The notes under the pieces are model-generated. The model had not been told where the DNA came from. It saw nothing but the letters and a program-made list of their open reading frames with translations, and did no database searches. A stretch of 64,000 bases of DNA from a virus (lineage: Duplodnaviria > Heunggongvirae > Uroviricota > Caudoviricetes): IMG/VR virus record IMGVR_UViG_3300008110_000029; one strand, written 5' to 3'. The number at the start of each line of letters is the position of its first letter. Positions within the stretch are counted from its first letter, which is position 1. Shown here piece by piece: positions 20,196-45,510 of the stretch. Position numbers and translations under genes: made by a program.

Positions 20196-20226
20196 ATTAA
20201 GGGGAAGGAAACTTCCCCTTAATTAA
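20196..20226 (+). terminator. Perfect hairpin TTAAGGGGAAG-GAAA-CTTCCCCTTAA after the hsp20 gene (terminator-like, no T-run)
   Basis: 11-bp perfect stem with a GAAA tetraloop. Confidence 0.4.
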
Positions 20227-20240
20227 CCTACAGAGGAAAT

Positions 20241-20549: not shown

Positions 20550-20807
20550 ATGACAGCCGACGAGTTTAAGTTCATACGATATATGAACGCTGAAACTAGT
20601 CGGTTTTCTTTTTGGATAATTTTTCACGACCTTAGAAGATATAATTTGGGTAAAAAAGGAAGAAAGAATTTTATAAGCTTCTTTACAGAAATTCTAGGGC
20701 CAGTAGGTGAGCGTTGGCAATATGAAAAAACAATTCATACATTTTGTATAAAATTAGATAAAGAAATAGATGCCACAATGATGATACTGAGATACGGGCC
20801 TAAGTAA
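20550..20807 (+). CDS. Small protein, distal member of the 'LKW' paralog family (see array at 33.1-35.8 kb)
   Basis: C-terminal '...KEIDATMMILRYGPK' parallels '...ENDRDATMFMLRWGY' of ORF 33089..33391. Confidence 0.4.
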   Translation: MTADEFKFIRYMNAETSRFSFWIIFHDLRRYNLGKKGRKNFISFFTEILGPVGERWQYEKTIHTFCIKLDKEIDATMMILRYGPK

Positions 20808-20817
20808 ATAAAAAACT

Positions 20818-28268: not shown

Positions 28269-29062
28269 TCTTATTAATCCTGTTGTTCCCTATTAAGAGT
28301 TGGGCCGAATCCAACTCTTATCTTTATAATATCACCAATGATAAAATTGTCATGGGCGATAGATTAGATGAAGTACGACCAATTGCCAGCATAACAAAAA
28401 TTATGACTGCTATGATTGTATTAGACTACTATAAATCGTTATCTGATAAAATTAAAACTGGCACCGGAATGCTACCTCGTAAAGAGTATACTCTCGAACA
28501 AATACTAACTGCTATGTTGGTACGAAGTGATAATGGCGCTGCAGAAACATTGGCTAGAAATTTTCCCGGAGGTAGGAAGGAGTTTCTAATCCAGATGAAT
28601 CGCAAAGCCAATCAACTTAAAATGTATAATACCAACTTTGATGATCCAACAGGATTGAGTAGAAAAAACGTATCTTCTATTCACGATCTTAGTTTAATGA
28701 TGACAACGGCTCAAAAATATTCTAAAATTAGAGAAATTAGCATTAAGAAACAGGCATTATTTGAAACCAAATATAAAAAGAAAATTAGAACTATTCATTT
28801 GCATAATACTAATACACCAATACTTTTTGAATTTGATACTGTAGTGGTGTCTAAAACAGGGTATACCAACCCAGCTGGATGGTGTGTGGCAATGGTAGTT
28901 GAAAAGTTCAATAACACTTATGTTGTAATTGTCTTGGGTGCTAAAAACAAAGCGCATCGTATTGACAAAGTTAAGGAAATCATGTATAATCATATTGTTG
29001 ATGAAAGAGTTTTTGATAAAGACATAGACTATGATTTCCAAATCCCCCATCCTATTTTATAG
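28253..29062 (+). CDS. Serine-type D-Ala-D-Ala carboxypeptidase (PBP5/6, peptidase S11 family) with signal peptide
   Basis: Signal peptide 'MYRNLILLILLFPIKSWA'. S-x-x-K 'ASITKIMT', S-x-N 'RSDNGAAETLA' and K-T-G 'SKTGYT' are all present. Confidence 0.75.
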   Translation: MYRNLILLILLFPIKSWAESNSYLYNITNDKIVMGDRLDEVRPIASITKIMTAMIVLDYYKSLSDKIKTGTGMLPRKEYTLEQILTAMLVRSDNGAAETLARNFPGGRKEFLIQMNRKANQLKMYNTNFDDPTGLSRKNVSSIHDLSLMMTTAQKYSKIREISIKKQALFETKYKKKIRTIHLHNTNTPILFEFDTVVVSKTGYTNPAGWCVAMVVEKFNNTYVVIVLGAKNKAHRIDKVKEIMYNHIVDERVFDKDIDYDFQIPHPIL

Positions 29063-29504
29063 AAAAGAAGGTCGCCGTTATATTCCGGTAGCAGAATATG
29101 ACAACGAACTATTAGATAGTTTCCCCAAAGGGGATCATCTTGTGTCTGTATACCCCGGCGGCACTAGTCGTCGCTTTAAGATTGATCCAGCTTATGCTCC
29201 TATGATTGCTGCGGGTCGTGTTGCCGAAGACAAAATCTGTAGGGCTATCGCCAAAGCCGCTGAACTACGTCCTCCTCGTTCTCCAATTACTCCTCAGCAG
29301 AAGAAAGCCTGGGAAGCATTGGCCAAAGCATTTGGCGATGAACTTTGTACCTTACAAGGATTGAGCATTCATGATTGTGCAGAAGCAGGTATTAAAGCTA
29401 TGCAGGAAGAAGCAGATAAACTTTTAAAACATGAAAGTGTTCGAAAGGCGTATGATCATTTTATGTTAATGTGCGAACTTACAAAAGAAAATACAGGAGA
29501 TTAA
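29031..29504 (+). CDS. Hypothetical protein (157 aa)
   Basis: ORF only. Confidence 0.4.
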   Translation: MISKSPILFYRKEGRRYIPVAEYDNELLDSFPKGDHLVSVYPGGTSRRFKIDPAYAPMIAAGRVAEDKICRAIAKAAELRPPRSPITPQQKKAWEALAKAFGDELCTLQGLSIHDCAEAGIKAMQEEADKLLKHESVRKAYDHFMLMCELTKENTGD

Positions 29505-29505
29505 A

Positions 29506-29685
29506 ATGGCACTACCATTATTAATAATTGGATTTGCTTCTTTGTTTGGCAGTGGTTGTACCTTTATGGACTGGCGCAGTCATCGAGAAGAAACATCTAA
29601 AATTGTTTGGACTGTTGGTCTGGCTATTATTGGTATGTATATGGTAGTTGCTGTTATTGGACAGTTAGTAAGGCATTGCTCATGA
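29506..29685 (+). CDS. Small two-TM membrane protein (59 aa; not in the supplied ORF track)
   Basis: ATG at 29506 preceded by CAGGAGA. 'MALPLLIIGFASLFGSGC...VWTVGLAIIGMYMVVAVIG'. Its stop overlaps the next start (ATGA). Confidence 0.3.
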   Translation: MALPLLIIGFASLFGSGCTFMDWRSHREETSKIVWTVGLAIIGMYMVVAVIGQLVRHCS

Positions 29686-30317
29686 GTTTTAATTTAGGTG
29701 ATATTTGGTCATATGAAGATAAAACTAGGAATCTTCCTAGTATTCAAGTAGTACGATATCCAACTATCCATTATCAAGATTGGTTTCCAGTATCTGTAAT
29801 CAATCCTAATTTTGAAAAAGGTCCTTGGATTGCTGGCGGTGCTGGTTTACGTTGGTATCAAGGAATTCCTGTAGGGGAAAGCGACATAGATGTATATTGT
29901 TCTTCTCCCATGCAGGCAGAGCAGTTACAACAGAAAATTTTTGCTTCAATGGCCTGTACAGAAAAATACAAATCAGATAACGCTGTTACATTAGAAGTTT
30001 CAAAAGATGATCAGACATGGACTGTACAAATAATTAAGAAAAACTATTTTACTGATATGCAAAAAGTCATTGATAGTTTTGATCTATCAGTTTGTCAAGT
30101 TGCTACTGATGGAAATACCTACTTGTTAGGCAATCATACAGCCAAGGATATTCGTGAACGCAACTTAAGAATGCGTATGCCTTTACAAGCAGATGCACTC
30201 AAGCGCCTTATCAAATATTGGACCTACGGGTATCGTCCAGTAGACGGATTATTAGAAGCAATTCAACACAATCCAGTAGGTCGTTGGGAATTTAACCCTG
30301 CAGAGGATTATCTATGA
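29682..30317 (+). CDS. Hypothetical protein
   Basis: The start was taken at the ATG overlapping the upstream stop (the track lists 29607). Confidence 0.4.
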   Translation: MSFNLGDIWSYEDKTRNLPSIQVVRYPTIHYQDWFPVSVINPNFEKGPWIAGGAGLRWYQGIPVGESDIDVYCSSPMQAEQLQQKIFASMACTEKYKSDNAVTLEVSKDDQTWTVQIIKKNYFTDMQKVIDSFDLSVCQVATDGNTYLLGNHTAKDIRERNLRMRMPLQADALKRLIKYWTYGYRPVDGLLEAIQHNPVGRWEFNPAEDYL

Positions 30318-32575: not shown

Positions 32576-32836
32576 ATGAATTATAATTTCAATATCACTA
32601 TGACAACTGATATATCTTCAACTATTGTAGAGGAAATAATAAAAAAAATAGTAGAAGAACAAACAGGTAAAAAAATTTCCTCTATAGAAGTTAAACTACG
32701 CCGAGTACAAAAAGGCATAGGTCCCAATGAATCAATTGACACTGTGTTTGACGGATATAACATTGTGTTTGTTGAAGAATCCACAAAAGGAAACAAACAA
32801 CCTAATACTGGATTTAAACCTGCTGTTTATCAATGA
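32576..32836 (+). CDS. Hypothetical protein (86 aa)
   Basis: ORF only. Confidence 0.3.
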   Translation: MNYNFNITMTTDISSTIVEEIIKKIVEEQTGKKISSIEVKLRRVQKGIGPNESIDTVFDGYNIVFVEESTKGNKQPNTGFKPAVYQ

Positions 32837-33159
32837 CTTTAACTAATCAAAGACTTATTGAAGAAATAAAAGGAATCCGCCGAGTGGTGATTAACATTTG
32901 CCACGGCGGATTTAGCCTTAGTGATCAAGCAATTGAAAAATATCGAGAGCTCACCGGTATAACTGATGAAAAATTTTGGGATCGAGATATATCAAGAGAC
33001 GATCCCTATCTAATTCAAATAATCAATGAAATGGGCGAAAAAGCCAACGGTTCTTACGCCGAATTAAAAATCGTAGAGATTCCTGCAGATGTTGATTGGA
33101 TTGTTGAGGAATACGATGGAAGAGAATGGATTGCCGAACGACATAGAACTTGGGACTAA
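32833..33159 (+). CDS. Hypothetical protein (108 aa)
   Basis: ORF, ATGA coupling. Confidence 0.35.
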   Translation: MTLTNQRLIEEIKGIRRVVINICHGGFSLSDQAIEKYRELTGITDEKFWDRDISRDDPYLIQIINEMGEKANGSYAELKIVEIPADVDWIVEEYDGREWIAERHRTWD

Positions 33160-33391
33160 ACTTAAACAAGTTTTAGCTACAAGATCTCGAGCTGTCTTTA
33201 GTTATCGTATCAACTTTGACACAATAGGATATGAATCTTTAGATCTCATGAGAAAGTGGTGTGAAGATAATTGCTCTGGACTTTGGCGATTAGAGCATGT
33301 CCACGCACTATATTTTCAATTTGAAAACGACAGAGATGCTACAATGTTTATGCTACGTTGGGGCTACTGTAGAAAAATTTTCCTTACCTAA
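33089..33391 (+). CDS. 'LKW'-family small protein, array member 1
   Basis: 'WCEDNCSGLWRLEHVHALYFQFENDRDATMFMLRWGY...'. Its start is uncertain (it overlaps the upstream ORF). Confidence 0.4.
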   Translation: MLIGLLRNTMEENGLPNDIELGTKLKQVLATRSRAVFSYRINFDTIGYESLDLMRKWCEDNCSGLWRLEHVHALYFQFENDRDATMFMLRWGYCRKIFLT

Positions 33392-33569
33392 TAATTTACA
33401 TGAATGGTTAATTCATGATTATGAAACGAATTTTTTAGGTCCAGGTAAACGATATCCAAAAAATTATTCAGATCAATATAAAAAAAGATATAATTGTCAT
33501 TATGATTGTCATTATTATACATTTGACTCAGAAAAAGATTATATGTTATTTTTGTTAAAATGGTCATGA
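33297..33569 (+). CDS. 'LKW'-family small protein, array member 2
   Basis: C-terminal 'CHYDCHYYTFDSEKDYMLFLLKWS'. The 5' part overlaps member 1 out of frame, so the start is uncertain. Confidence 0.4.
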   Translation: MSTHYIFNLKTTEMLQCLCYVGATVEKFSLPNNLHEWLIHDYETNFLGPGKRYPKNYSDQYKKRYNCHYDCHYYTFDSEKDYMLFLLKWS

Positions 33570-33958
33570 TTTATTCTTGGCAAAAAGAGATATTAGAAAA
33601 AATGACGCAGTACAAAGGTAAAGGTATGACAACAATTACTGGACGCAAGTTAGGCAAGAGTGCCTTTTCTGCTCAGGCTTTTCAACGACTGTGGGAAGAT
33701 CTTCATGCTCGCCCGGTGGAAGATCTTAAGCTCACAGAAGGCACAGTCTACGGTGCTAGATATTATTGTGTAGAACCAGTTGGTGGAGTATGGCGAGAAA
33801 TGGAAGCGTGGTGTGTCGAAACATTTGGTTCAGTTGGGGAACACATGTGGGGTAACGAGAAAGCACCAGACCCTGCACAGCGTTGGTACATGAACAATCG
33901 CAAGTTCTGGTTCCACAATGAAGTAGATAGAATGGTGTTTGTATTAAAATGGCGATAA
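33560..33958 (+). CDS. 'LKW'-family small protein, array member 3
   Basis: '...AWCVETFGSVGEHMWGNEKAPDPAQRWYMNNRKFWFHNEVDRMVFVLKWR'. Its start ATG lies inside the upstream K-W codons (TTAAAATGGTCATGA). Confidence 0.45.
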   Translation: MVMIYSWQKEILEKMTQYKGKGMTTITGRKLGKSAFSAQAFQRLWEDLHARPVEDLKLTEGTVYGARYYCVEPVGGVWREMEAWCVETFGSVGEHMWGNEKAPDPAQRWYMNNRKFWFHNEVDRMVFVLKWR

Positions 33959-34021
33959 AACTTTTAAGACGAAAAGTTATTATAAGACTGGGCCTTTAGC
34001 AGCTATTGATACTGATCTTAA

Positions 34022-34198
34022 AATGCCTGCAGTTCTAGTGGCACAGTTACAAGACTTTCTCTACGACAAAAAATATCATCAATGGACTGTATCCATTGAT
34101 GAAGAAGGTTACCTCTGTGTACAGTCTAGAAAGAATACACCTAGAACTAGATTAGGGTGGGGTATCTTTGAAAAAGATATAGAAAGACATTATGAATA
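34022..34198 (+). CDS. Small ORF (58 aa) within the array spacer, degenerate junction (CTTAAAATGCC)
   Basis: ATG at 34022. The stop overlaps the member-4 start (TATGAATAA). Confidence 0.25.
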
Positions 34199-34455
34199 AT
34201 TTAGAAGAAGAAATAACTCAAGAACTAGCTACACAGATGCAAAGTGAAATGGACTTTCATATTCTTTCTGATATGTTGGTCAAATCCTGCGGATGGAAGA
34301 AAGTCACATTAACCAGATTCTTTAGTCGTAAACATTCTGTGAATATTTTAATGTGGTGCGAAGAAAATATTAAAAATCCTTTTGAACATAGAGGAAGCAC
34401 TTTTGTATTTGAGAATGAAGGTGATGCTGTTAACTTTACACTAAAATGGTTATGA
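34192..34455 (+). CDS. 'LKW'-family small protein, array member 4
   Basis: '...WCEENIKNPFEHRGSTFVFENEGDAVNFTLKWL'. Confidence 0.45.
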   Translation: MNNLEEEITQELATQMQSEMDFHILSDMLVKSCGWKKVTLTRFFSRKHSVNILMWCEENIKNPFEHRGSTFVFENEGDAVNFTLKWL

Positions 34456-34676
34456 AAACTGCTAGAGATTTTCCTTACCAAACAGTTACTGATAGAACCA
34501 ATCATGGAAAAGCTGCAGAATGGTGCAAGGAAAAGTTTGGTCCTAGATGGGAAGCTATAGGATATAGAGAAGGTACATGGTGTACATTTTGGCAAGGTCG
34601 AGGCGTACCGGGAAGCTATGAATGGTTCTTTCTCAACGAACAAGATTATTTGATGTTTACTTTAAAATGGTTATAA
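34446..34676 (+). CDS. 'LKW'-family small protein, array member 5
   Basis: '...WCKEKFGPRWEAIGYREGTWCTFWQGRGVPGSYEWFFLNEQDYLMFTLKWL'. Start ATG inside the upstream 'AAATGGTTATGA'. Confidence 0.45.
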   Translation: MVMKTARDFPYQTVTDRTNHGKAAEWCKEKFGPRWEAIGYREGTWCTFWQGRGVPGSYEWFFLNEQDYLMFTLKWL

Positions 34677-34933
34677 AAACTTCTGTACACCATTGGCGTT
34701 TTGAGGACGGCAAGACAGTGCCTAACCCCAGTAGCCATTTCCCTTTAGGACCTCCTCCTCGTGGTTGGTACTGTTGGGTATATCCCGAAGACGATCATGA
34801 GTTTGAAGAATGGATGGCTAAGATGTGTCCTACGACAGATTGCACACACCGATTTAACGGTGGCGATCCCATGTACACCGTTTTTATTAAAGAAGATAAA
34901 GAAGCGACACTGTTTCAATTAAAATGGATGTAA
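34667..34933 (+). CDS. 'LKW'-family small protein, array member 6
   Basis: 'MVIKTSVHHW...WMAKMCPTTDCTHRFNGGDPMYTVFIKEDKEATLFQLKWM'. Start ATG inside the upstream 'AAATGGTTATAA' (the track lists the 34622 extension). Confidence 0.45.
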   Translation: MVIKTSVHHWRFEDGKTVPNPSSHFPLGPPPRGWYCWVYPEDDHEFEEWMAKMCPTTDCTHRFNGGDPMYTVFIKEDKEATLFQLKWM

Positions 34934-34936
34934 TAC

Positions 34937-35332
34937 ATGGCAAGATGGTATAAGGATATCGACAGAACTTTTCAAATTAATGAATATCTTTCTGATCGAT
35001 ATTCTTCAAATCATAAAGACAAGATTCGTTGGCCGGTAACAAATAAGTATGTTATAATAAACACCCCCGAAGGAGATCGCGTGGAAGAAGTTAAAGAGAT
35101 AATAGTTCATCAATTCTCGATGGGGGATGTTGAAGATCCAGATCTTTACGCTGCTACTCCTCTATGGGAGTGGGAGAAAAGTGAACAAGGACAGTGGGTA
35201 ATGAAAAATGCCGTGGATACCCCAACGTGGTATCGAATGGCTGATACCAGTATATTTGGTTACAAATATCAAATTAGAGCCAAGCTAATGGGTCCGGCAT
35301 TAACAGAATGGTTGTTGAGGTTTGGTGAGTGA
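34937..35332 (+). CDS. Hypothetical protein (131 aa) interrupting the array
   Basis: ORF. It ends '...EWLLRFGE', not a clear family member. Confidence 0.35.
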   Translation: MARWYKDIDRTFQINEYLSDRYSSNHKDKIRWPVTNKYVIINTPEGDRVEEVKEIIVHQFSMGDVEDPDLYAATPLWEWEKSEQGQWVMKNAVDTPTWYRMADTSIFGYKYQIRAKLMGPALTEWLLRFGE

Positions 35333-35589
35333 AAGATAATCCAAAACAATTTATTACTATGGCTCACAAAAAAGTGGGTTCGGTATTATTAGAAGATGAT
35401 AAACTGATGTCTATCTTAAATGGTTATCATATTGTACGATTAGAAGGTGACGACGACTTTAATGAAAAACTCACGTGGTGTATGGAACACTGTCAAAGTA
35501 AATTTCGAGATATAAGAGAATCTAACTGCCGTGCTTGGTATTTTCAAAATGAACAGGACGCCAGTATGTTTGCCATGAAATGGTCTTAA
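35329..35589 (+). CDS. 'LKW'-family small protein, array member 7
   Basis: GTG start. '...WCMEHCQSKFRDIRESNCRAWYFQNEQDASMFAMKWS'. Confidence 0.45.
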   Translation: MKDNPKQFITMAHKKVGSVLLEDDKLMSILNGYHIVRLEGDDDFNEKLTWCMEHCQSKFRDIRESNCRAWYFQNEQDASMFAMKWS

Positions 35590-35811
35590 ATGTTAGTAGT
35601 ATATCTCGATGATTCAAAAATAGTCTACGATAGATCCTTAGAATATTTTCAAACAGCGGCAGATTGGGCCAAAGCTCAATGTCAAAGTTTTGTTGACTAT
35701 CATGTTCAAGATGTTTCAGATGTATCAATGATGTTCGATCACGTGGCAGAATATCGATTTAAAGATTCTAAAGATGTTTTAATGTTTCAATTAAAATGGA
35801 AAACCAATTGA
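35590..35811 (+). CDS. 'LKW'-family small protein, array member 8
   Basis: '...WAKAQCQSFVDYHVQDVSDVSMMFDHVAEYRFKDSKDVLMFQLKWKTN'. Start immediately after the upstream stop (AAATGGTCTTAAATG). Confidence 0.45.
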   Translation: MLVVYLDDSKIVYDRSLEYFQTAADWAKAQCQSFVDYHVQDVSDVSMMFDHVAEYRFKDSKDVLMFQLKWKTN

Positions 35812-35867
35812 CTTTTGAAGTTAATGAGTATATAATTAACTTGTTTAATAATATATAGGTAACTTAA

Positions 35868-36624: not shown

Positions 36625-37182
36625 GTGAAAAAAATCGAGGACTTCAATGCCGAAGATCGTATTGATATCGAACTACTCGGAAACAGTATACATTTCTTAG
36701 TGGGAGAAATAAATGAGGACACGATCAAAAGTGCTATAAAATGGATTGTTTACGAAAACCTAGAGTCAAAGGAAAAAACATTAACTTTATACGTTAATTC
36801 AACAGGCGGTGATCTTTATCAAGCATTTGCCTTAATTGATGTAATGCGTAGCAGTAATCACACAATTAGAACTGTTGGTATCGGTGCTGTAATGAGTGCA
36901 GCATTTTTAATTTTTGCCAGCGGTGATCAAGGTGAAAGATACGCAGCTCGTAATACTAGTTTTATGTGTCATCAGTTTTCAGAAAGTATGGATAACAAAT
37001 ATCATGACCTTAAAGCTACTATGCGAGAAAATGATTTATGTAATGAAAAAATGGTACAAATATTAAAAGACGCTACAGGACTTGCTCCTAGCGTAGTCAA
37101 AAAGAAATTACTGCCCGCCAGTGATGTTTATCTATCATCCCAGGAAGTCATAGATCTCAACGTTGCAGATCATCTGTTATAA
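36625..37182 (+). CDS. ClpP-family serine protease (S14)
   Basis: '[21 protein letters not shown]...[18 protein letters not shown]...FMCHQFS' parallels ClpP 'IYINSPGG...TICMGQAASMGAFLL...IHQPLGG' (Ser and His positions conserved). GTG start. Confidence 0.6.
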
Positions 37183-37184
37183 AT

Positions 37185-37403
37185 ATGTCTAAAGAAGATA
37201 TTATTAAGTTCGACGGAACTATTGTAGAAGTTCTGCCCAACACAACTTATCGTGTAAAATTAGCAGATACCCAAACAGTAGTATATGCTTATTCTAGCGG
37301 TAAAATTAGGAAGAACAACATTAAAATTCTGTTAGGTGATACAGTAACTTTGGAGTTTAGCCCCTATGACCTTTCCAAAGGAAGGATTGTTTACCGAAAA
37401 TAA
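37185..37403 (+). CDS. infA: Translation initiation factor IF-1
   Basis: 72 aa. '[63 protein letters not shown]' is near-colinear with E. coli IF-1 ('[62 protein letters not shown]'). Confidence 0.88.
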
Positions 37404-38071: not shown

Positions 38072-39001
38072 ATGCAACCAGTACAAATAGCTATGTCGGG
38101 AGTTACTCCCGGAACTTATGGAAACAACACCCAGATTCCTTCTTTCACAGTTGATGCTAGAGGTAGACTAGTATGGGCTGCAAATGTTGATATTCAATCA
38201 ACATTTAAATTTAAGGTTAATGATGACGATAGAATTGAAACCGTTAATTTAAGTAATGATTCATTCAATTTTAGAAGTGGACATGGAATCAATATAACAC
38301 CGGCACCAGACGGAATTAATATTGATTTTGATAGATCAATAATTCCCGATACTAGTGACTTTGTTAGAAAATCAGAAACATCTCATCAATTTTTAGGATC
38401 TATAAGATCTCCGTTAATTTATTCTCAAGAAGGAATATTTGATTCAGTTACTACAAAAGAAATATTAATAGATGGTGTATATACTAGATTTCAAACAAAA
38501 GGGTTCCATGTAGATTTTACAGACTTTGATGTTCTTGATTCTAAAGTTTTTCAAATCGATGGAATTTCAAAAAATACTAATACTGAAACAGCAAATTTTA
38601 ATGTTGATATTACATCTTCTTGGTTAAAATTCACCAGTCAAATTGAACTTCCTAATTCTGCTTTAAGTTTTCCAGATGGCCATGCTTTGGGAATTATTTC
38701 TTTTCAAGATGGCGGAATTGAAATGGGATATGGTGCAGGATTAATTGCTATCAAAAATTTTAATAATGATGGATCTTCACCGACAGGAATTTGCGTTATT
38801 ACTTCAAATGGGAAAGATGATATTTTTGAAAATCCAACAAAGTTTAACTTTGGTGGCGACGGAGTATTTGAAGCACCAATTTTAAAAACAAAAAGCTATA
38901 CAAGTTTGCCAGATAATCCCAAAGAAGGTTGGATAGTATTTGATGGCAACAACAAACAATTTAAAGGGTGGAACGGAACTAGTTGGATAACTTTAGGATA
39001 A
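38072..39001 (+). CDS. Tail-fibre-like structural protein
   Basis: The N-terminal 'MQPVQIAMSGVTPGTYGNNTQIPSFTVDARGRLVWAANV' resembles the phage tail-fibre 'G-x-Y-x-x-V-T-V-D-x-x-G-R-V' repeat. The rest is Gly/Asn/Asp-rich beta-type sequence. Confidence 0.45.
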   Translation: MQPVQIAMSGVTPGTYGNNTQIPSFTVDARGRLVWAANVDIQSTFKFKVNDDDRIETVNLSNDSFNFRSGHGINITPAPDGINIDFDRSIIPDTSDFVRKSETSHQFLGSIRSPLIYSQEGIFDSVTTKEILIDGVYTRFQTKGFHVDFTDFDVLDSKVFQIDGISKNTNTETANFNVDITSSWLKFTSQIELPNSALSFPDGHALGIISFQDGGIEMGYGAGLIAIKNFNNDGSSPTGICVITSNGKDDIFENPTKFNFGGDGVFEAPILKTKSYTSLPDNPKEGWIVFDGNNKQFKGWNGTSWITLG

Positions 39002-40535
39002 GAGGTTTAAAATAATCTCTTATTATTGTTTCTTTAAACATTTCTGTAAAATTAATAGACTTAATTAAATTTTGATATTCTTTATCTGTTAAATCTAAAT
39101 TTTTTTCTCTATTGCTTAGTCTACTATCATTAAAACTACTAATATAAAAATCTCCTCGATACGGCTTATTCTTCAATGTAGAATTTAATTCTTGCGAAAG
39201 TAATTCGGCCTGTTCGTAGCTGTTTATATCAGTATCATCATCTTTTCTCCAACTAAAGAAATTTATATCGGGATTAGGAAAATAATAACCATACTTTGAA
39301 TAATTGCGATCAATTTCACTCATATACATGTATTTCATAATATTGTGATTACCAATAATACTTAAAGGAAATGTGTTAGCTAAATCTATTGGGCAATCTT
39401 TTCTTTTAAAAAATTCAACAGCCTTATAAATTGTATCTGTACTTTCGTAAGGTAAACCTATAATAATCCCCGAAGCAATGTAACTTCGATCTCCCCAAAT
39501 TTCTTTACACTGATAGATAGTATCTATTAATCTTTCACTAGCCATCCCCTTACCAATAAACTTTGCAGTTTTTGGATTAAATGTTTCTAGACCAAAGTAA
39601 GTTTCTGCTATACCGGCATCTTTTAGTAATTGTATTTGCTCTGGGTGTGCCGCTAATAAATCTGCTCTTAGATAACACCAAAATTTTAATTCAAAAGGCA
39701 AACTCTGACTAACATCTGCAAACATCTGCATCTTTTCTGTACTATCATTAAACGTATCATCAACAATAAAATATTTTGTTGTTCCCCATTGTTCATAATT
39801 TTCTAAGAGTTCTCTACGTATAACATCAGCTTGTTTAAGATAGTTGACTGTTTTCTGTCCTATCAAAGGATACGAGCAATAGGCACATTTAAATTTACAA
39901 CCTCTGCTGACTTCTAAATTTAAAGTTTCTTGAGGTTGTATTAAATCCCAGGACGTATATGAAGTAGTACTTAATTTAAAATCCCATGTTGGATTGTGCG
40001 CCTTACGATCATGATCTATAATTCTATTAAATATCCTTTTTGTTTTTCCCGACAGAGAATCTAACAAATCAATAGTTTCAGTTTCTCCTAATCCGACTAT
40101 AACATAATCTGTAGGAGCATTAAGATAAAAATCAATCCTTGCACCACCCAACATTGTTTTTGTTTTTAAATTACATTGTTTGACATAATCGATCCAGGGT
40201 TTATAATTATCTCGAGCAAACTCAGTAACTAAACTTGGAATCTCAAATCGTTCTTTATCTGTTCCTGTTCCTTCTCCCGGATTACTGGTTCTAACACCAA
40301 TATCAGGAAACTTAAAAGGCATCCATGTTGTACTATAGCCAACTAGTAATGTGTTTGGTCCAATTGCTTTATCTAATATTTCAGTGTATATTTCCCAAGT
40401 AACAAGAGAGCTAAAATTAATTACTAAACAGCTATAACCATAATTGCGTATATGACTGGCTAATCTGTGTACACCATAACCTCTAGATTTAATATTAAAT
40501 TCTACAGTGTCAGTAAAAAGAATAACATCAAACAT
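38979..40535 (-). CDS. B12-binding radical-SAM enzyme (class B radical-SAM methyltransferase-like), copy 1
   Basis: 518 aa. N-terminal Rossmann-like B12-binding region. 'NLEVSRGCKFKCAYCSYP' is a Cys-x3-Cys-x2-Cys radical-SAM cluster motif. Confidence 0.75.
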   Translation of the reverse strand: MFDVILFTDTVEFNIKSRGYGVHRLASHIRNYGYSCLVINFSSLVTWEIYTEILDKAIGPNTLLVGYSTTWMPFKFPDIGVRTSNPGEGTGTDKERFEIPSLVTEFARDNYKPWIDYVKQCNLKTKTMLGGARIDFYLNAPTDYVIVGLGETETIDLLDSLSGKTKRIFNRIIDHDRKAHNPTWDFKLSTTSYTSWDLIQPQETLNLEVSRGCKFKCAYCSYPLIGQKTVNYLKQADVIRRELLENYEQWGTTKYFIVDDTFNDSTEKMQMFADVSQSLPFELKFWCYLRADLLAAHPEQIQLLKDAGIAETYFGLETFNPKTAKFIGKGMASERLIDTIYQCKEIWGDRSYIASGIIIGLPYESTDTIYKAVEFFKRKDCPIDLANTFPLSIIGNHNIMKYMYMSEIDRNYSKYGYYFPNPDINFFSWRKDDDTDINSYEQAELLSQELNSTLKNKPYRGDFYISSFNDSRLSNREKNLDLTDKEYQNLIKSINFTEMFKETIIRDYFKPLILKLSN

Positions 40536-42138
40536 TTTTATTTTTAAGATAGTTTAACAACGGTTGAAAATATTCTTTATTGGTATGATCATAAAACAGT
40601 TGATTAAAGTCTATAGAATTTATTAAATTATTATATTCTATCTTTGGCATATCGATAGTAAACTCTCTATTTCCAAGTATTGGATGATTGAAAGAACTAA
40701 CATAAAAATCTCCCTGACGTATTCTTTGATATGATGCTAATTCTTTAGTGGTAATGTCGGCTATTTCTTGTGCTTGATAAAAATTTTTAATATCGGTATC
40801 ATCTTTCTCCCAATATAACATTCCGTCTACTCCGTCCTTAGGAAATTGATATCCAAACTTTTCGTAGTTTTCGTCAAACCAACTAGTAGGGAACCATTTA
40901 TTTCTATCGGTTTTTTTAATTATATTGAGAGGATATACTGTCGAAATATCTAGCGGACAATCTCTACGCTTTAACCAATCAACGGTTTCTCTCCAACTAG
41001 CCTGGGTTTCGTGAGGAAGGCCAATCATAAAACCCCCTTCTAACCATACTCGATCACCCCACACTTCTTTTGCTCTATATAAAGTATCCTTACGGCGACT
41101 TGATGGCATTCCCTTACCAATAGTTTTTGAGCTCTTGTCATTAAAAGTTTCAAGACCAAAAAATGTTTCTGCTATGCCTATTTCTTTTAACAGTTCCATC
41201 TGTTCGGGATGTGCGGCTAATAGATCAACTCGGGTATAACACCAAAATTTAATTTTAAAAGGCAAGTCGCTCATTACCTTGGCCAACATTTCTAATTTTT
41301 CAGTGCTGTCATTAAATGTATCATCCACAATAAAATACTTAGTAGTACCCCAAAGTTCGTAATTTTTTAACAACTCGTCACGAATAATAGTTGGATATTT
41401 TAAATAATCATTGACATTTTTTTGACCAATAAGAGGAAAGTTGCAGAACGAACATTTAAATCTACATCCGCGACCTACTTCTAAGTTAAGAGTTTCTTGA
41501 GGTTGTATAAAATCATATTCTGTGTATTGTGTGCTACTTTCTCTAAAATCCCATGTAGGAGCATGAGCTTTTCTATCGTGATCGATATATTTTCCAAATA
41601 TGCGTTTTGTTTTTCCCGATAGTCGATCTAATAAATCAATAGTTTCAGTTTCGGCAATTCCAAAAATAACATGATCTATATTTTTTAGATCCATATAAAA
41701 ATCTGCTTTTGCACCACCTAATACAATTTTTAATTTTGAATTAATTGTTTTAGGATATAACAACCATTCTTCAACTTCATTCTTTCCAAATTTAACCACT
41801 AAATTATCTTTTCTCCAATCGTGCATCTCTGACTTTAAATGACTTAATTCATGTTGTTCCCCAATATGGTGTCCGGGAATCTGATTGGTAAATTCTCCTG
41901 GTTTTTCCGGCCATCTATAAGGTAACCAAGTTGTACTAAAACCAACCATAAGAGTTTCTGGTCCCACTGAATTATCAATAATTTCTTTATATCTATCAAA
42001 TGTTAGTGCCGAACTAAAATCAATGACAAGACAAGAGTAACCATTTGTTCTAATTTGACTAGCAATTCTATGCACACCATAACCTCTAATTTTATGATGA
42101 GGATAGGGAGCATCGGTAAATAGTATGACATTAAACAT
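40528..42138 (-). CDS. B12-binding radical-SAM enzyme, copy 2 (tandem paralog of 38979..40535)
   Basis: 536 aa. 'NLEVGRGCRFKCSFCNFP'. Long stretches are near-identical to copy 1 ('ETETIDLLD.LSGKTKRIF...IDHDRKAHAPTWDF', 'WGTTKYFIVDDTFNDSTEK'). Confidence 0.75.
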   Translation of the reverse strand: MFNVILFTDAPYPHHKIRGYGVHRIASQIRTNGYSCLVIDFSSALTFDRYKEIIDNSVGPETLMVGFSTTWLPYRWPEKPGEFTNQIPGHHIGEQHELSHLKSEMHDWRKDNLVVKFGKNEVEEWLLYPKTINSKLKIVLGGAKADFYMDLKNIDHVIFGIAETETIDLLDRLSGKTKRIFGKYIDHDRKAHAPTWDFRESSTQYTEYDFIQPQETLNLEVGRGCRFKCSFCNFPLIGQKNVNDYLKYPTIIRDELLKNYELWGTTKYFIVDDTFNDSTEKLEMLAKVMSDLPFKIKFWCYTRVDLLAAHPEQMELLKEIGIAETFFGLETFNDKSSKTIGKGMPSSRRKDTLYRAKEVWGDRVWLEGGFMIGLPHETQASWRETVDWLKRRDCPLDISTVYPLNIIKKTDRNKWFPTSWFDENYEKFGYQFPKDGVDGMLYWEKDDTDIKNFYQAQEIADITTKELASYQRIRQGDFYVSSFNHPILGNREFTIDMPKIEYNNLINSIDFNQLFYDHTNKEYFQPLLNYLKNKNV

Positions 42139-42161
42139 CTAGTTATTTAAGTGAGATATCT

Positions 42162-42848
42162 ATGGTAAAAAAATTTAATTCAGTTCTAGCATTTGGAGAT
42201 AGTCATGTTGCTGGATGTGAATTATCAAATCAATATACTTTTGAAGATTATACCAGAGGTAAAATAACAATAGAACAAGCAGATGATTCTGGAAAAAAAT
42301 TAGCCTTTCCTCAAGTGGTTGCTGATAAATTAAATATTCCTTGTTATAATTATGCAATGACTGGCGGAAGTAATGCTCGTAGTCTAAGATTATTAGTCAA
42401 CGCATTACAAGAACATCCAAATAGTTTAGTATTGTTTGGGTATACATGTACAGATAGAACAGAATTTTACTATCCAGACGTTGGCAATTTCTTAGGTAGA
42501 GATAAAGATAAATTCATACAAGTTGGTATGCAATGGAAAGGTAAGGTTGATGGAACCATGATTCATCCAATTAACGATCTGTTTGTTAATGAAATGCTTC
42601 GTCCTTATAATAATTTAAATGAATTAATGTTTATAGTAGATAATTTATGTACAGGATGGGCTACTGATTTTTTACATTTACCGTTGTTTCCAGAAATTAT
42701 ACCAAAGGTAGATAATGTTTTTAATTTTGAAAGTTGTGAGAATTATGTAAATTGGTGTGAATTCAAAATGTATAAAAAATTACCATTTTATCATTACGAT
42801 CAAGAAGCACATAATAATTTGGCTAGATTAATTCTTGAGGAGTTATAA
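42162..42848 (+). CDS. SGNH/GDSL-family hydrolase
   Basis: 'VLAFGDSHVAGCE' is the block-I GDS(H) motif. Confidence 0.5.
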   Translation: MVKKFNSVLAFGDSHVAGCELSNQYTFEDYTRGKITIEQADDSGKKLAFPQVVADKLNIPCYNYAMTGGSNARSLRLLVNALQEHPNSLVLFGYTCTDRTEFYYPDVGNFLGRDKDKFIQVGMQWKGKVDGTMIHPINDLFVNEMLRPYNNLNELMFIVDNLCTGWATDFLHLPLFPEIIPKVDNVFNFESCENYVNWCEFKMYKKLPFYHYDQEAHNNLARLILEEL

Positions 42849-43201
42849 TGTCTTGGGGTTATCATATTATGTTAGATTGTGCCGGTTGTGATTTAAAAAA
42901 AATTAAAGATAAAGATCACATATGGGCATTTGTATATACATTAATAAAACGTGTTGAAATGGAAGCGCACGGAAAAATGATCATTGAAAATTTATTACCA
43001 GGAACAGACAATGAAGGATATAGTGTATTACAAATGATTACTACAAGTAATATAAATTGTCATTTTGTAAACAAGACTGCTGATGCTTATATTGATTTGT
43101 TTAGCTGTAAAGAATTTAAAGCAGAAATAGTTATTGCTACTGTTAAAGAATTTTTTAATCCAACCAGCATCAAATTAAACTTTGTAGAAAGACAGGCTTA
43201 G
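42848..43201 (+). CDS. speD: S-adenosylmethionine decarboxylase-like protein (small pyruvoyl SpeD/SpeH class)
   Basis: 117 aa. 'GYHIMLDCAGCD' aligns with SpeH 'GRHLIAELYGCD'. 'GYSVLQMITTSNINCHF' aligns with '[20 protein letters not shown]'. 'AYIDLFSC' aligns with 'AAVDVFTCG'. Confidence 0.6.
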   Translation: MSWGYHIMLDCAGCDLKKIKDKDHIWAFVYTLIKRVEMEAHGKMIIENLLPGTDNEGYSVLQMITTSNINCHFVNKTADAYIDLFSCKEFKAEIVIATVKEFFNPTSIKLNFVERQA

Positions 43202-44277
43202 GGATCTATCCTCATATCCTCTCTGCTACGAAATCTATAACGTTCCGGAACGGTGTCATATAATATCATATTCTTGTTTACAGCCGCGTCACGTAGCATG
43301 ATTTGATGTAGAAAATTACTAATAGGTTTATTAGGTACAAAGTCACACCACGGACCACATCGTAGCTCTTCCATATCAATGGTTTTAGGATCGCTCCATT
43401 GTATTAATCTATGTGTGATACCGTTAATCTTAACCATATAATGATACAGATTATCATCTGCAGGTATCTTTTCCCATGTCCATCCTTTGCTGTCTACATA
43501 GTCCTTAATTGCTTTTACATGGTCACTAAGATAATAACGAGGTTCATCCGGGTTGCGACCAATGTCGCTGCCAGCACGTACACGATACTGTAAGGCATTA
43601 TTTCCTAGTTTTTGTATTTCTTCTAGTACTTCTGGAATGTGATTTAAGTTTTCTAATGTATAACCTACGTAGTAAACAACAATGCCAGCAGCCTTACAAT
43701 TCTCAATACCTTGTAACTGTTTTTGATGTACAGTATCACCTTGGTACGAATGATGGTTAAGTCCTACCATCACAGCACGACATCCAGCCTTGGCTATTTC
43801 TTCAGTCCACTGCTTATCAGCGAGCTTAACACCATTAGTTAAAATTGTAATATCCTGGTGTGTTCTGCCTAGGCGAGTTTGTACATGTCTGATGTTTCTA
43901 ATTAGTTCAGGTAAGTCTTTACGTAGTGTAGGTTCAGCACCTGCAAGGATAACGCTACCAGCATCTTCAGGCCAACTTTCAATTTGTTGAAGTATTAATC
44001 CTAAGGGTTTGTCTGTTGTTGCATTTTCTGGTTCATGATAACAGTGCGGGCATTTTAAATTACAGCGATCTGTAACTTCAATCATAATACCACTGGGCAC
44101 ATCGTATCCGTACGGATCAAATTCTAAACTCTTATAAAAGTCTGAATCGCGTTCTATCATATATTCACTATAACCGTGCTCCGGACACTCTTTACTCATC
44201 CACACGCTACCATCTCGTATAAACTTTTTAGCAGAAACGTGTCTATAACAATGTTCGCATAAACTTATTGTGTCCAT
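43198..44277 (-). CDS. Radical-SAM enzyme with C-terminal Cys-rich (SPASM/twitch-like) region
   Basis: 'EVTDRCNLKCPHCYHE' is a Cys-x3-Cys-x2-Cys motif. The N-terminal 'CEHC...C' and C-terminal 'RCGPWCDF' are extra Cys clusters. Confidence 0.7.
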   Translation of the reverse strand: MDTISLCEHCYRHVSAKKFIRDGSVWMSKECPEHGYSEYMIERDSDFYKSLEFDPYGYDVPSGIMIEVTDRCNLKCPHCYHEPENATTDKPLGLILQQIESWPEDAGSVILAGAEPTLRKDLPELIRNIRHVQTRLGRTHQDITILTNGVKLADKQWTEEIAKAGCRAVMVGLNHHSYQGDTVHQKQLQGIENCKAAGIVVYYVGYTLENLNHIPEVLEEIQKLGNNALQYRVRAGSDIGRNPDEPRYYLSDHVKAIKDYVDSKGWTWEKIPADDNLYHYMVKINGITHRLIQWSDPKTIDMEELRCGPWCDFVPNKPISNFLHQIMLRDAAVNKNMILYDTVPERYRFRSREDMRIDP

Positions 44278-44810
44278 CTATCTACCTTTGATAATTGATC
44301 TAAAAATATATTTTTATTAAGTTTCCAGAACGTTTGTTTATGACCTCTATAATTATGATCAAACGCTCTGGTCAGCACCCCTGTAGATTCTAATGTGGGC
44401 CCCCATATTGTATGAACTAATCTTTGTGTGCCAACTTCGCTTTCGTGACTAGTAATATACATATCATGATTGCCTACCCATTCAATACAAGTGGGCATAA
44501 AAAACTGTGCAGTAATATGTTGATGATTTTTAATTTGATTAATTGTTCTTAAAGTTATTTTAGGTAAGTGATTGGTTAATACACATGTTCTAGCACAAAT
44601 CCTATATCCAAGATCGTCTAAAGTATGTGCCGCCACAGATCCAACAGGGTGGTCATTATAATATAATATCCAGATGTTCCAACGTACTTCATTTTTAAAA
44701 CAATCGATCATTGCTGCTTGACTTGAGTTATTTACGAAACCTCTAGATTTTGCCTCGGCATAAAATTCAGTAAGATCTAAATCTTCCGACCATGGAACTA
44801 TTTTATACAT
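44265..44810 (-). CDS. Hypothetical protein (181 aa; possible acyltransferase fold)
   Basis: ORF, overlapping coupling. No firm motif. Confidence 0.3.
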   Translation of the reverse strand: MYKIVPWSEDLDLTEFYAEAKSRGFVNNSSQAAMIDCFKNEVRWNIWILYYNDHPVGSVAAHTLDDLGYRICARTCVLTNHLPKITLRTINQIKNHQHITAQFFMPTCIEWVGNHDMYITSHESEVGTQRLVHTIWGPTLESTGVLTRAFDHNYRGHKQTFWKLNKNIFLDQLSKVDRWTQ

Positions 44811-45502: not shown

Positions 45503-45510
45503 GAAAAATA

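What the first reader, a model, noticed from the sequence alone, without database searches (positions are those of the whole stretch)
33089..35811. Tandem array of at least eight divergent small paralogs sharing a C-terminal 'WC.E..C ... F.F.NE.DA..F.LKW' module, linked by a recurring TTAAAATGG stop/start junction
The eight ORFs (73-132 aa) have unrelated N-termini. They share a Trp/Cys-rich segment and a C-terminal consensus '(Y/F)xFxNExDAxxFxLKW' followed by 0-6 residues. Six junctions read TTAAAATGG(T/C)(T/C)AT(G/A)A. The K-W codons (AAA TGG) of the conserved C-terminus supply or abut the ATG of the next gene, so every cassette boundary is a short repeat that could mediate recombinational shuffling. 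A distal member lies at 20550..20807. Members 1-2 overlap out of frame.
Basis: seen in the sequence. Interest (0 to 1): 0.75.

Follow-up and report, generated by a model that had tools for sequence, protein, structure and literature searches.

The report
Expanded small-protein family in jumbo phage
The window carries a real tandem array of eight divergent copies of a small, uncatalogued protein domain that is massively multiplied in a lineage of giant bacteriophages; what it does is unknown, but a cultured relative makes it testable.

Summary
The array is real. Eight co-oriented genes (33116-35811) share one small domain. Seven pass a leave-one-out HMM test (E 2e-4 to 5e-12). The eighth (m6) and the distal gene at 20550-20807 are supported only by profile-profile comparison (P 5e-6 and 1.5e-5; ten neighbour genes give P 0.19-0.83).

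AlphaFold2 models of two members give the same beta-alpha-beta-beta-alpha fold (pLDDT 80 and 93). It covers nearly the whole protein, so the N-termini are not unrelated, and there is no zinc site.

The family matches nothing in Pfam, NCBIfam, PHROGs, PADLOC or PDB sequences. It still has about 540 clusters at 50% identity, all small proteins. It occurs in uncultured aquatic jumbo-phage contigs (up to 374 kb; 23-25 copies in 12 kb of one) and in cultured Sinorhizobium phage Phosso, where members are annotated hypothetical.

Orthologues are under purifying selection (dN/dS 0.12-0.21). Copy content and order differ widely between relatives.

The TTAAAATGG junction follows from the conserved L-K/R-W-x-stop end plus 4-nt or 10-nt start overlaps. 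It is not a demonstrated recombination site.

The m1/m2 out-of-frame overlap comes from a 44-nt deletion specific to this window.

Function is unknown. My best guess is a set of diversified host-interaction binders.

The parts
32833..33159 (+). n108: conserved 108-aa non-member gene that anchors the upstream end of the variable region. It also ends W-D-stop.
   Evidence: Present upstream of the array in most related loci. hhalign against the family gives P 0.35. Relatives end RTWS-stop with a GTGA or ATGA overlap to the next gene.
33116..33391 (+). m1: family member. The ORF opens at 33089; the likely start is ATG 33116, as called in relative L002. The C-terminal tail is altered by the 44-nt deletion at 33364|33365.
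   Evidence: Leave-one-out E 2.7e-8. hhalign P 9e-17. Orthologues end MLRWG(G/T)AEGNxLK, whereas the window reads GYCRKIFLT.
33336..33569 (+). m2: family member that lost its own start codon and Shine-Dalgarno sequence through the 44-nt deletion. The remaining ORF starts at an upstream ATG (33336 or 33297), out of frame inside m1. It is possibly not expressed.
   Evidence: Leave-one-out E 1.5e-6. L085, L086 and L087 are 100% identical apart from 44 extra nt that carry GAGGTGGGC-ATG-ACA-TAT. m2 is absent from L002 and from all 80 IMG/VR loci.
33560..33958 (+). m3: family member, 132 aa. It starts at the ATG embedded in the K-W codons of m2 (33560) or at the ATGA overlap (33566).
   Evidence: Leave-one-out E 2.2e-5. 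hhalign P 1.9e-10. Orthologues in 32 or more loci.
33949..34199 (+). Remnant of a 125-aa non-member gene. A 16-codon N-terminal stub (33949-33999) starts at the K-W ATG of m3. The 58-aa ORF 34023-34199 is its C-terminal part. A 127-nt deletion separates the two.
   Evidence: The gene is intact in L002 (9377-9754) and L085 (4599-4976). The deletion has 5-nt microhomology (TAAGA) at 33983-33987. hhalign against the family gives P 0.55.
34192..34455 (+). m4: family member, 87 aa.
   Evidence: Leave-one-out E 1.1e-4. hhalign P 5.8e-13.
34446..34676 (+). m5: family member, 76 aa from ATG 34446 (inside K-W of m4) or 74 aa from the ATGA overlap at 34452. The whole protein is one domain.
   Evidence: Leave-one-out E 4.6e-12. 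AF2 pLDDT 92.8, beta1-alpha1-beta2-beta3-alpha2.
34667..34933 (+). m6: divergent family member, 88 aa. It starts at the ATG embedded in the K-W codons of m5. The usual ATGA start has mutated to ATA here.
   Evidence: Leave-one-out E 0.053. hhalign P 5e-6 with 30 orthologues. N-terminal conservation (x-K-T-x-V-H-H-W-R-F-E-D-G) begins right at this start.
34937..35332 (+). n131: 131-aa non-member gene that directly precedes m7 in every related locus that has both. GTGA overlap with m7.
   Evidence: Order map. hhalign P 0.28. dN/dS 0.11.
35329..35589 (+). m7: family member and the most widely conserved one. It starts at GTG 35329 (GTGA overlap) or ATG 35359.
   Evidence: Leave-one-out E 9e-9. AF2 pLDDT 79.9 overall, about 90 in the core 33-86. 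Orthologues in about 70 loci.
35590..35811 (+). m8: family member, 73 aa and last of the array. Its tail is KTN.
   Evidence: Leave-one-out E 2.4e-4. hhalign P 6.9e-13.
35808..35836 (+). Best sigma-70-like site of the region (TTGACT-17-TATAAT, 11 of 12), immediately after the m8 stop. It may be the start of the next transcription unit and so mark the array's downstream boundary.
   Evidence: This is a consensus match only.
20550..20807 (+). d9: probable remote relative, 85 aa. It lies directly after ClpS in a conserved block DnaK-Hsp20-ClpS-d9-heme oxygenase-bilin reductase.
   Evidence: HMM tests are negative. hhalign of 14 orthologues against the family gives P 1.5e-5, probability 80%, 42 columns. 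Synteny is conserved in L090 and L092.

Best explanation
SHOWN
- The region is a co-oriented, tightly packed array of eight paralogous genes. Each encodes a small soluble protein of about 75-130 aa built around one domain of roughly 55-60 residues, beta1-alpha1-beta2-beta3-alpha2.
- The conserved W (helix 1), F-x-F (strand 3), D-A (start of helix 2) and F-x-L-K/R-W (helix 2) are the family's signature. The loop between helix 1 and strand 2 and the N-terminal extension vary in length and sequence.
- The family is uncatalogued but large, and it is multiplied in a lineage of jumbo phages.
- Individual subfamilies are kept under purifying selection. The set and order of copies differ between relatives inside a fixed frame (n108 ... 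n131-m7 ... n136-n90-ClpP). Single copies are lost by small deletions in otherwise identical genomes.

JUNCTIONS
- The protein ends L-K/R-W-x-stop. With A/T-rich codons this reads TTAAAATGGnnnTGA/TAA.
- The next gene usually starts at the ATGA/GTGA 4-nt overlap. The NTG formed by the last base of the K/R codon plus the TG of the W codon, 10 nt from the stop end, lies in the same frame. It acts as an alternative or back-up start.
- I infer that the array is translated by termination-reinitiation coupling.

INFERRED FUNCTION
- The family is a diversified set of binding modules: a constant scaffold with variable loops and N-termini.
- The phage would use them on host proteins for takeover or counter-defence, each paralogue having a different target.
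- This would make it an accessory gene repertoire shaped by gain, loss and exchange between co-circulating phages.
For: FAMILY AND SIGNIFICANCE
- establish the module and its significance.
- Family size: 535 homologues among 5.8 billion proteins. 540 clusters at 50% identity with E <= 1e-3, all 50-141 aa with the module at the C-terminus; two of the sequences read carry two modules.

FOLD
- AF2 m7: core pLDDT about 90.
- AF2 m5: pLDDT 92.8, pTM 0.80, same topology.

PHAGE CONTEXT
- Contigs of 84-374 kb.
- 455 members in 85 loci, 453 of them on the query strand. Counts run from 1 to 11 per 12-kb locus, and 23-25 in L077.
- 19-23 members in 90 kb of cultured Sinorhizobium phage Phosso, depending on the profile used, all annotated hypothetical.

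SELECTION AND PLASTICITY
- dN/dS is 0.12-0.21 for six subfamilies.
- Order map. The m6 cassette is found behind at least six different upstream neighbours, always starting at M-x-K-T.
- Mosaic patch against L002. 44-nt and 127-nt deletions against 100% identical L085 and L086.

JUNCTIONS
- The tail after W is exactly 1 residue in 317 of 453 members.
- The downstream +2 frame is open in 67% of family ends against 35% of controls.
- A start codon lies at -4 in 46% against 21%, and at -10 in 51% against 4.8%.
- A -10 start with no other overlapping start occurs in 14% against 1%.
- None of the 86 junctions assigned to the -10 start has a Shine-Dalgarno-like motif, against 25-47% elsewhere.

PHYSICAL PROPERTIES
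- The proteins are hydrophilic and mostly mildly acidic, with no consistent basic charge.
Against: - There is no direct functional evidence of any kind.
- PADLOC holds defence systems, not anti-defence proteins, so its silence says nothing either way.
- Expression timing is unknown.
- The 'binder' idea rests on analogy with other expanded viral families and on the pattern of constant core plus variable loops.
- The -10 start is inferred from sequence only. Where an ATGA is also present, the start actually used cannot be told.
- The apparent deletions could partly reflect metagenome-assembly heterogeneity.
Confidence: 0.55

Rival explanations
1. Clp-linked adaptors. The conserved module docks onto the phage-encoded Clp machinery (ClpS, ClpP, and in relatives ClpA and ClpX). 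The variable part recruits host proteins for degradation, or blocks their degradation.
For: - The array ends about 800 nt upstream of ClpP in roughly 70 syntenic loci. Arrays also sit next to ClpP in the distant loci L072 and L073.
- Phosso has members abutting its ClpP gene.
- d9 lies directly after ClpS in a conserved chaperone block.
- Relatives such as Atu_ph07 encode ClpX, ClpA, ClpB, ClpP and ClpS (PMC6102473).
Against: - The roughly 70 loci are orthologous, so they count as one observation.
- In Phosso the family occurs about once per 4 kb, so adjacency to any gene is expected by chance.
- L077, L078, L081 and L082 have large arrays with no ClpP within 6 kb.
- No sequence or fold similarity to known adaptors (ClpS, SspB, MecA) was found.
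Confidence: 0.1
2. Nucleic-acid-binding regulators. The domain is a KH-like or RRM-like fold that binds RNA or ssDNA, and the paralogues regulate different transcripts.
Against: - The family has no G-x-x-G loop. Helix 1 is a single long helix.
- The conserved surface residues are acidic (E, N-E, D). Median pI is 5.9 and only 16% of members have pI above 8.
Confidence: 0.1
3. The repeated stop/start junction is a dedicated short repeat that mediates recombinational shuffling of whole cassettes.
For: - Cassette order and content are shuffled between relatives.
- Cassettes such as m6 are found behind six different neighbours with the boundary at the same M-x-K-T start.
- The junction motif is enriched.
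Against: - Exact identity between junctions is at most 13 nt. The motif is fully accounted for by the conserved protein end plus start overlap.
- The only recent exchange seen has breakpoints inside genes.
- The recent deletions do not use the junction.
- Cassettes also sit behind spacers with ordinary Shine-Dalgarno sequences.
- Selection on whole genes would give gene-boundary junctions whatever the mechanism.
Confidence: 0.12
4. Decaying duplicates with no current function.
For: - In this window m2 has lost its start.
- A neighbouring gene is truncated.
- Member content differs widely between relatives.
Against: - dN/dS is 0.12-0.21 with near-saturated synonymous change in six subfamilies.
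- Lengths and reading frames are intact across 30-70 orthologues each.
- The family persists from aquatic phages to Phosso.
Confidence: 0.04

Closest known systems
Hypothetical proteins of Sinorhizobium jumbo phage Phosso (PV764938), and probably Agrobacterium phage Atu_ph07
   Same: - They are true homologues. The family profile finds 19-23 members in 90 kb of Phosso, depending on the profile used, with the signature D-A-M-L-F-K-L-T/R-W-x-stop. They lie in co-oriented tandem runs.
- The ClpP ... IF-1 neighbourhood is shared with the window.
- Foldseek against BFVD places several Atu_ph07 and 'uncultured Caudovirales' proteins among the best matches, at probability 0.82-1.0.
   Different: - Sequences are too diverged for BLAST. 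tblastn of m7 finds nothing in 50,697 phage records, and a Phosso member finds only itself.
- The host (Rhizobiales, soil) and the GC content differ.
- The two genome papers I could read on this phage group (PMC6102473, PMC11242549) do not mention a paralogous family.
Multigene families of large eukaryotic DNA viruses: ASFV MGF110/360/505, and poxvirus or giant-virus ankyrin/F-box expansions (from general knowledge, not tested here)
   Same: - Tandem arrays of divergent paralogues in a variable genome region.
- Copy gain and loss between isolates.
- A constant scaffold with variable surfaces.
- Individual members are dispensable but the family is maintained.
   Different: - Different viruses, hosts and folds.
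- Those families have experimentally shown roles in host range and immune evasion; this one has none.
- The proteins here are far smaller, consisting of one 55-60-residue domain.
Hyperplastic (plasticity) regions of T4-like phages and anti-defence gene clusters of phages (from general knowledge)
   Same: - Runs of small co-oriented genes with overlapping stops and starts.
- A fixed conserved frame with variable content.
- Mosaic exchange between relatives.
   Different: - Those regions mostly hold unrelated ORFans. Here a single domain family has been multiplied up to 25 times in 12 kb.
- No member matches any catalogued protein family.
Type I KH and ACT domains (fold level only)
   Different: - There is no G-x-x-G loop (KH).
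- There is no fourth strand or ligand site (ACT).
- Sequence identity is 3-13%.
- Sequence profiles find no PDB relative.

Membership tests
The uncatalogued family itself (beta-alpha-beta-beta-alpha domain ending F-x-L-K/R-W-x) | Significant match of the C-terminal module to a profile built without the sequence under test | tested here: met
   m1-m5, m7 and m8 give leave-one-out E 2.4e-4 to 4.6e-12. m6 gives E 0.053 there but hhalign P 5e-6. d9 passes only hhalign, P 1.5e-5. Controls give P 0.19-0.83.
The uncatalogued family itself | Shared fold beta1-alpha1-beta2-beta3-alpha2 covering the N-terminal strand as well | tested here: met
   AF2 models of m7 and m5 have the same element order at high confidence. 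The other members were not modelled. A hydrophobic strand 8-12 residues before the W is visible in all of them by eye.
The uncatalogued family itself | C-terminus K/R-W followed by one residue and a stop that overlaps the next gene's start | tested here: met
   Six of the 8 window members have a 1-residue tail. So do 317 of 453 members in related loci.
Any curated protein family (Pfam-A, NCBIfam, PHROGs, PADLOC) or solved structure by sequence | Profile match at or near the curated threshold | tested here: not met
   - Pfam: no matches for the window proteins, and no shared family among 150 diverse members.
- PHROGs.
- NCBIfam.
- PADLOC.
- PDB sequences: best E 0.64.
Type I KH domain | beta-alpha-alpha-beta-beta-alpha topology with a G-x-x-G loop between the first two helices | tested here: not met
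ACT domain | beta-alpha-beta-beta-alpha-beta fold with a ligand-binding loop, usually dimerising through the sheet | tested here: inconclusive
   The first Cys is present in 6 of 8 members and the second in 4 of 8. Both lie on one helix (i, i+4). There is no conserved third or fourth ligand. The models are ordinary alpha/beta sandwiches.
Clp adaptor proteins (ClpS, SspB, MecA and similar) | Sequence or fold similarity to a known adaptor; binding to a Clp ATPase N-domain | not testable with these tools
   No similarity was found by sequence or fold. The only lead is genomic proximity.

The most novel reading that the evidence does not exclude
The family could be a phage-encoded repertoire of substrate adaptors or anti-adaptors for the phage's own Clp proteolysis and chaperone system (ClpS, ClpP, DnaK and Hsp20 are all in this window). 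A constant docking module would be fused to variable target-binding loops, each copy directing a different host protein, for example a defence protein, to degradation. This would be a bacterial-virus counterpart of the ankyrin/F-box adaptor expansions of poxviruses and giant viruses. My evidence does not exclude it. Only gene neighbourhood supports it.
Probability: 0.08. Interest if true: 0.85.

Novelty: new member of a known kind. Interest (0 to 1): 0.45.

Why it matters
Jumbo phages carry hundreds of unannotated small genes. Here one uncatalogued domain accounts for a sizeable share of them:
- about 540 clusters at 50% identity;
- up to 25 copies in 12 kb;
- about one copy per 4 kb in the sampled part of a cultured 469-kb phage.

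A family that is multiplied, kept under purifying selection and reshuffled between close relatives is a typical signature of genes acting at the virus-host interface. Defining it gives annotation pipelines a new profile.

It also gives experimenters a tractable system. Phosso and Atu_ph07 grow on Sinorhizobium and Agrobacterium, so the question of what such expansions do in giant phages can be tested directly.

The stop/start architecture, in which a conserved C-terminal Trp codon doubles as part of the next gene's start, is a neat case for studying translational coupling.

Tried and rejected
- DNA searches of the array and of 22 kb of flanking sequence against 50,697 phage records found nothing, in both megablast and blastn modes.
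- tblastn of m7 found nothing. tblastn of a Phosso member found only itself. BLAST-level methods are therefore blind to this family.
- Pfam, PHROGs, NCBIfam, PADLOC and PDB sequence profiles found no family.
- The one JGI name on a homologue, 'YfcZ/DUF406' on P0006, is not backed by any Pfam hit and I disregard it.
- Foldseek against afdb50 was not available.
Presence in cellular genomes or prophages is therefore untested.
- I considered whether the window belongs to the 'moraphages', freshwater jumbo phages with DnaK, DnaJ and Hsp20 (PMC12619734). Their DnaK groups with Flavobacteriaceae. This window's DnaK is 67-69% identical to copies in records of Pseudomonas and Acinetobacter phages and of a Salmonella strain. 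Identity with that lineage is not shown.
- Precomputed annotation gives PF26128 (Gad2, an anti-defence protein) to orthologues of 29607-30317. My own hmmscan of the window protein did not reproduce it, so I do not use it as evidence.
- An iterated profile found no further members elsewhere in the window.
- Rejected ideas: zinc or Trp-cage fold, KH membership, and a junction recombination site. Reasons are given above.

Full report
1. WHAT IS IN THE SEQUENCE

Between 33089 and 35811 the + strand carries ten closely packed ORFs. Eight of them share a module: W-C-x-E-x-x-(C/G), then a variable loop, then (Y/F)-x-F-x-(N/D)-E-x-D-A-x-x-F-x-L-(K/R)-W near the C-terminus. I call these m1 to m8.

I tested the similarity in three ways.

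- Leave-one-out HMMs searched against all 866 six-frame segments of the window.
  - m1-m5, m7 and m8 were recovered at E 2.4e-4 to 4.6e-12.
  - m6 scored E 0.053 but still ranked above every non-member.
  - The best non-member scored E >= 0.065.
- A profile built mostly from database representatives. It recovered m1-m5, m7 and m8 at E 2e-7 to 1e-19 among 17,425 segments.
- Profile-profile comparison against that family alignment.

| Query | hhalign P |
|---|---|
| m1-m4, m7, m8 | 7.5e-18 to 3e-6 |
| m6 (30 orthologues) | 5e-6 |
| d9, distal ORF 20550-20807 (14 orthologues) | 1.5e-5 |
| Ten neighbouring genes | 0.19 to 0.83 |

So m6 is a divergent member and d9 is a probable remote relative. 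The two interspersed ORFs, 34023-34199 and 34937-35332, are not members. An iterated profile found no other member in the 64 kb.

2. FOLD

AlphaFold2 was run with family alignments.

| Model | Confidence | Elements |
|---|---|---|
| m7 | pLDDT 79.9 overall, about 90 over residues 33-86 | E34-39, H44-54, E59-63, E67-72, H75-85 |
| m5 | pLDDT 92.8, pTM 0.80 | E11-16, H17-31, E45-49, E57-62, H65-75 |

- Both models are beta1-alpha1-beta2-beta3-alpha2.
- The W-C motif opens helix 1. F-x-F is strand 3. D-A caps helix 2, which ends at the conserved W one residue before the C-terminus.
The proteins are therefore homologous over essentially the whole domain.
- What varies is the helix 1 to strand 2 loop, which looks about 3 to 30 residues long in the alignment, and the extension before beta1.
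- The two cysteines lie on one helix and are not universally conserved, so a zinc site is not supported.
- The family lacks the G-x-x-G loop of KH domains.

3. HOW BIG THE FAMILY IS AND WHERE IT LIVES

- No Pfam, PHROG, NCBIfam, PADLOC or PDB-sequence match exists, for the window proteins or for 150 diverse members.
- A profile search nevertheless finds 535 homologues in 5.8 billion proteins. It finds 540 clusters at 50% identity in the representative library. All are 50-141 aa with the module at the C-terminus; two of the sequences read carry two modules.
- Encoding contigs are phage-like and large: 84, 178, 360 and up to 374 kb.
- Scanning 85 loci found 455 members, 453 of them on the query strand. 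Typical counts are 3-8 per 12 kb. L082 has 10 within 2.7 kb. L077, from a 374-kb contig, has 23-25 in 12 kb.

The window itself looks like part of such a jumbo phage. It encodes:
- RNR small subunit, a phosphate porin and IMPDH/GMP reductase;
- DnaK, Hsp20 and ClpS;
- heme oxygenase and a bilin reductase;
- an SPFH protein, ClpP and IF-1;
- several radical SAM enzymes.

The ClpP is most similar to cultured phages as follows.

| Phage | Identity |
|---|---|
| Synechococcus phage BUCT-ZZ01 | 38% |
| Sinorhizobium jumbo phage Phosso | 37% |
| Ralstonia phage RsoM2USA | 30% |

- Phosso shares the ClpP ... IF-1 neighbourhood.
- In the 90 kb of Phosso I examined, the family profile finds 23 members at E < 0.01, and the iterated profile 19 at E < 1e-3. 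Their signature is D-A-M-L-F-K-L-T/R-W, they lie in tandem runs, and all are annotated hypothetical.
- Foldseek against viral models also ranks Atu_ph07 and 'uncultured Caudovirales' proteins at the top.
- The family therefore exists in cultured phages but is invisible to BLAST. The two genome papers I could read do not mention it.

4. ARE THEY REAL, MAINTAINED GENES?

Yes. Orthologues of m1, m3, m4, m6, m7 and m8 occur in 15-67 related loci at 50-97% amino-acid identity. Frames are intact and dN/dS is 0.12-0.21, with synonymous sites near saturation.

The repertoire is nonetheless plastic. A conserved frame (n108 ... n131-m7 ... n136-n90-ClpP) encloses very different member sets and orders. 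Examples:
- 'n108 m1 m4 n131 m7'
- 'n108 m6 m1 F m3 n58 m4 n131 m7 F m8'
- 'n108 m1 m6 n131 m7 m3 m4 F'
- 'm4 m3 F m1 n131 m7'

The m6 cassette sits behind at least six different upstream neighbours, and its protein always begins M-x-K-T. The non-member n131 always directly precedes m7.

5. RECENT EVENTS IN THIS WINDOW

- Contig L002 is 97-98% identical to the window on both sides. It becomes about 70% identical or unalignable from mid-m1 (33220) to mid-m3 (33734), and it lacks m2. This is a recombinational mosaic with breakpoints inside genes.
- Contigs L085, L086 and L087 are 100% identical to the window over up to 8.2 kb, apart from two indels.
  - The window lacks 44 nt between 33364 and 33365. 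These encode the normal end of m1 (G-A-E-G-N-R-L-K-stop) and the Shine-Dalgarno sequence and start of m2 (GAGGTGGGC ATG ACA TAT). This explains both the odd m1 tail (GYCRKIFLT) and the out-of-frame m1/m2 overlap. m2 has lost its own start here.
  - The window lacks 127 nt (5-nt microhomology, TAAGA) of a 125-aa non-member gene that follows m3. That gene starts at the ATG inside m3's K-W codons. What remains is a 16-codon stub and the 58-aa ORF 34023-34199. L086 has a larger deletion at the same place.
- Single copies are therefore lost in otherwise identical genomes. Metagenome-assembly heterogeneity cannot be fully excluded.

6. THE JUNCTION

- TTAAAATGG is enriched: 7 in the window against 1.8 expected, and 5 of them lie at array gene ends.
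- Across 453 members the tail after W is exactly one residue in 317.
- With that geometry the ATGA/GTGA 4-nt overlap and the NTG formed by the last base of the K/R codon plus the TG of the W codon (10-nt overlap) lie in the same frame.

Family gene ends compared with 1,362 control ORF ends in the same loci:

| Feature | Family (451 ends) | Control |
|---|---|---|
| Downstream frame open for at least 45 codons | 67% | 35% |
| Start codon at -4 | 46% | 21% |
| Start codon at -10 | 51% | 4.8% |
| -10 start with no other overlapping start | 14% | 1% |

- None of the 86 junctions assigned to the -10 start has a Shine-Dalgarno-like motif upstream, against 25-47% in the other classes. This fits termination-reinitiation.
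- For m6 in this window the usual ATG of the ATGA overlap has mutated to ATA, which also turns the stop TGA into TAA. The K-W ATG is then the only start before the conserved N-terminus.
- The junction is therefore real and family-wide. It is explained by a conserved protein end, A/T-rich codons and coupled translation.
- DNA identity between junctions is at most 13 nt exact and 60-79% over 50 nt. None of the recent rearrangements uses the junction.

7. FUNCTION

Nothing here shows function.

- The proteins are soluble and mostly mildly acidic. Median pI is 5.9 and 16% have pI above 8.
- Several features together resemble viral multigene families that act on host proteins. This comparison rests on general knowledge. 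The features are:
  - a constant core with variable loops;
  - massive lineage-specific multiplication;
  - purifying selection on each subfamily;
  - rapid turnover of the repertoire;
  - placement in a variable region.
- I therefore favour a repertoire of diversified binders for host takeover or counter-defence, with moderate to low confidence.
- A more specific idea is that they work with the phage's own Clp and chaperone system. It is suggested only by neighbourhood: the array lies upstream of ClpP, d9 follows ClpS, and Phosso members lie next to ClpP. Given the family's density, that is weak evidence.

8. VERDICT

The paralogy interpretation is right. The recombination-junction and zinc-fold ideas are not supported.
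- This is a new, uncatalogued member of a known kind of thing: an expanded accessory gene family in a large virus.
- It is worth a family definition and experiments in Phosso or Atu_ph07, but it is not a new kind of system on present evidence.

Noticed in passing
window 17713-22036: A conserved block of DnaK, Hsp20, ClpS, d9, heme oxygenase and ferredoxin-dependent bilin reductase. The same order occurs in L090 and L092. Bilin-biosynthesis genes sit next to chaperone genes in a jumbo phage that does not look like a cyanophage; its DnaK is 67-69% identical to copies in records of Pseudomonas and Acinetobacter phages and of a Salmonella strain.
   Followed up: partly
window 36625-37403; L088 19797-21142: ClpP is followed by a translation initiation factor IF-1 homologue (PF01176, E 4e-21). 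The same ClpP ... IF-1 neighbourhood is present in Sinorhizobium jumbo phage Phosso. This hints at a distant relationship between the window's lineage and Atu_ph07-like phages.
   Followed up: partly
window 38979-50774 and 55861-57348, - strand: A cluster of at least four radical SAM genes, two of them with B12-binding domains, on the opposite strand, with a class-III aminotransferase on the + strand at 53678-54862. GC drops from about 0.37 to 0.29-0.34 beyond 38 kb. Collinearity with the close relative L002 ends at about 38.2 kb. This may be a variable biosynthetic island.
   Followed up: no
window 8360-9772: A phage-encoded phosphate-selective porin O/P homologue (PF07396, E 1e-51), an unusual auxiliary gene. 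The RNR small subunit (595-1695) and IMPDH/GMP reductase (16588-17667) lie in the same part of the window.
   Followed up: no
window 29607-30317: Orthologues of this gene in L001, L002 and L085 carry a precomputed Pfam hit to PF26128 (Gad2, an anti-Gabija protein). My own hmmscan of the window protein found no family at E <= 1e-3. The discrepancy is unresolved.
   Followed up: partly
window 33949-34199; L085 4599-4976; L086 around 933: The 125-aa gene after m3 shows three alleles in otherwise 100% identical DNA. It is intact in L085 and L002. The window has a 127-nt deletion with 5-nt microhomology. L086 has a larger deletion that also removes window 33986-34019. This is either a deletion hotspot or assembly heterogeneity.
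   Followed up: partly
window 34937-35589 and about 70 related loci: The non-member gene n131 always directly precedes m7 with a GTGA overlap, whatever else is rearranged. This suggests that the two proteins work together.
   Followed up: no
window 32833-33159: The non-member gene n108 also ends W-x-stop (RTWD here, RTWS in relatives), with the next gene's start overlapping. The Trp-x-stop overlap architecture is therefore not confined to the family.
   Followed up: partly
window 29501-29509: TTAAAATGG also occurs at the end of the unrelated ORF 29031-29504, where TAA (29502-29504) is its stop codon. I did not examine whether this gene boundary resembles the family junctions.
   Followed up: no
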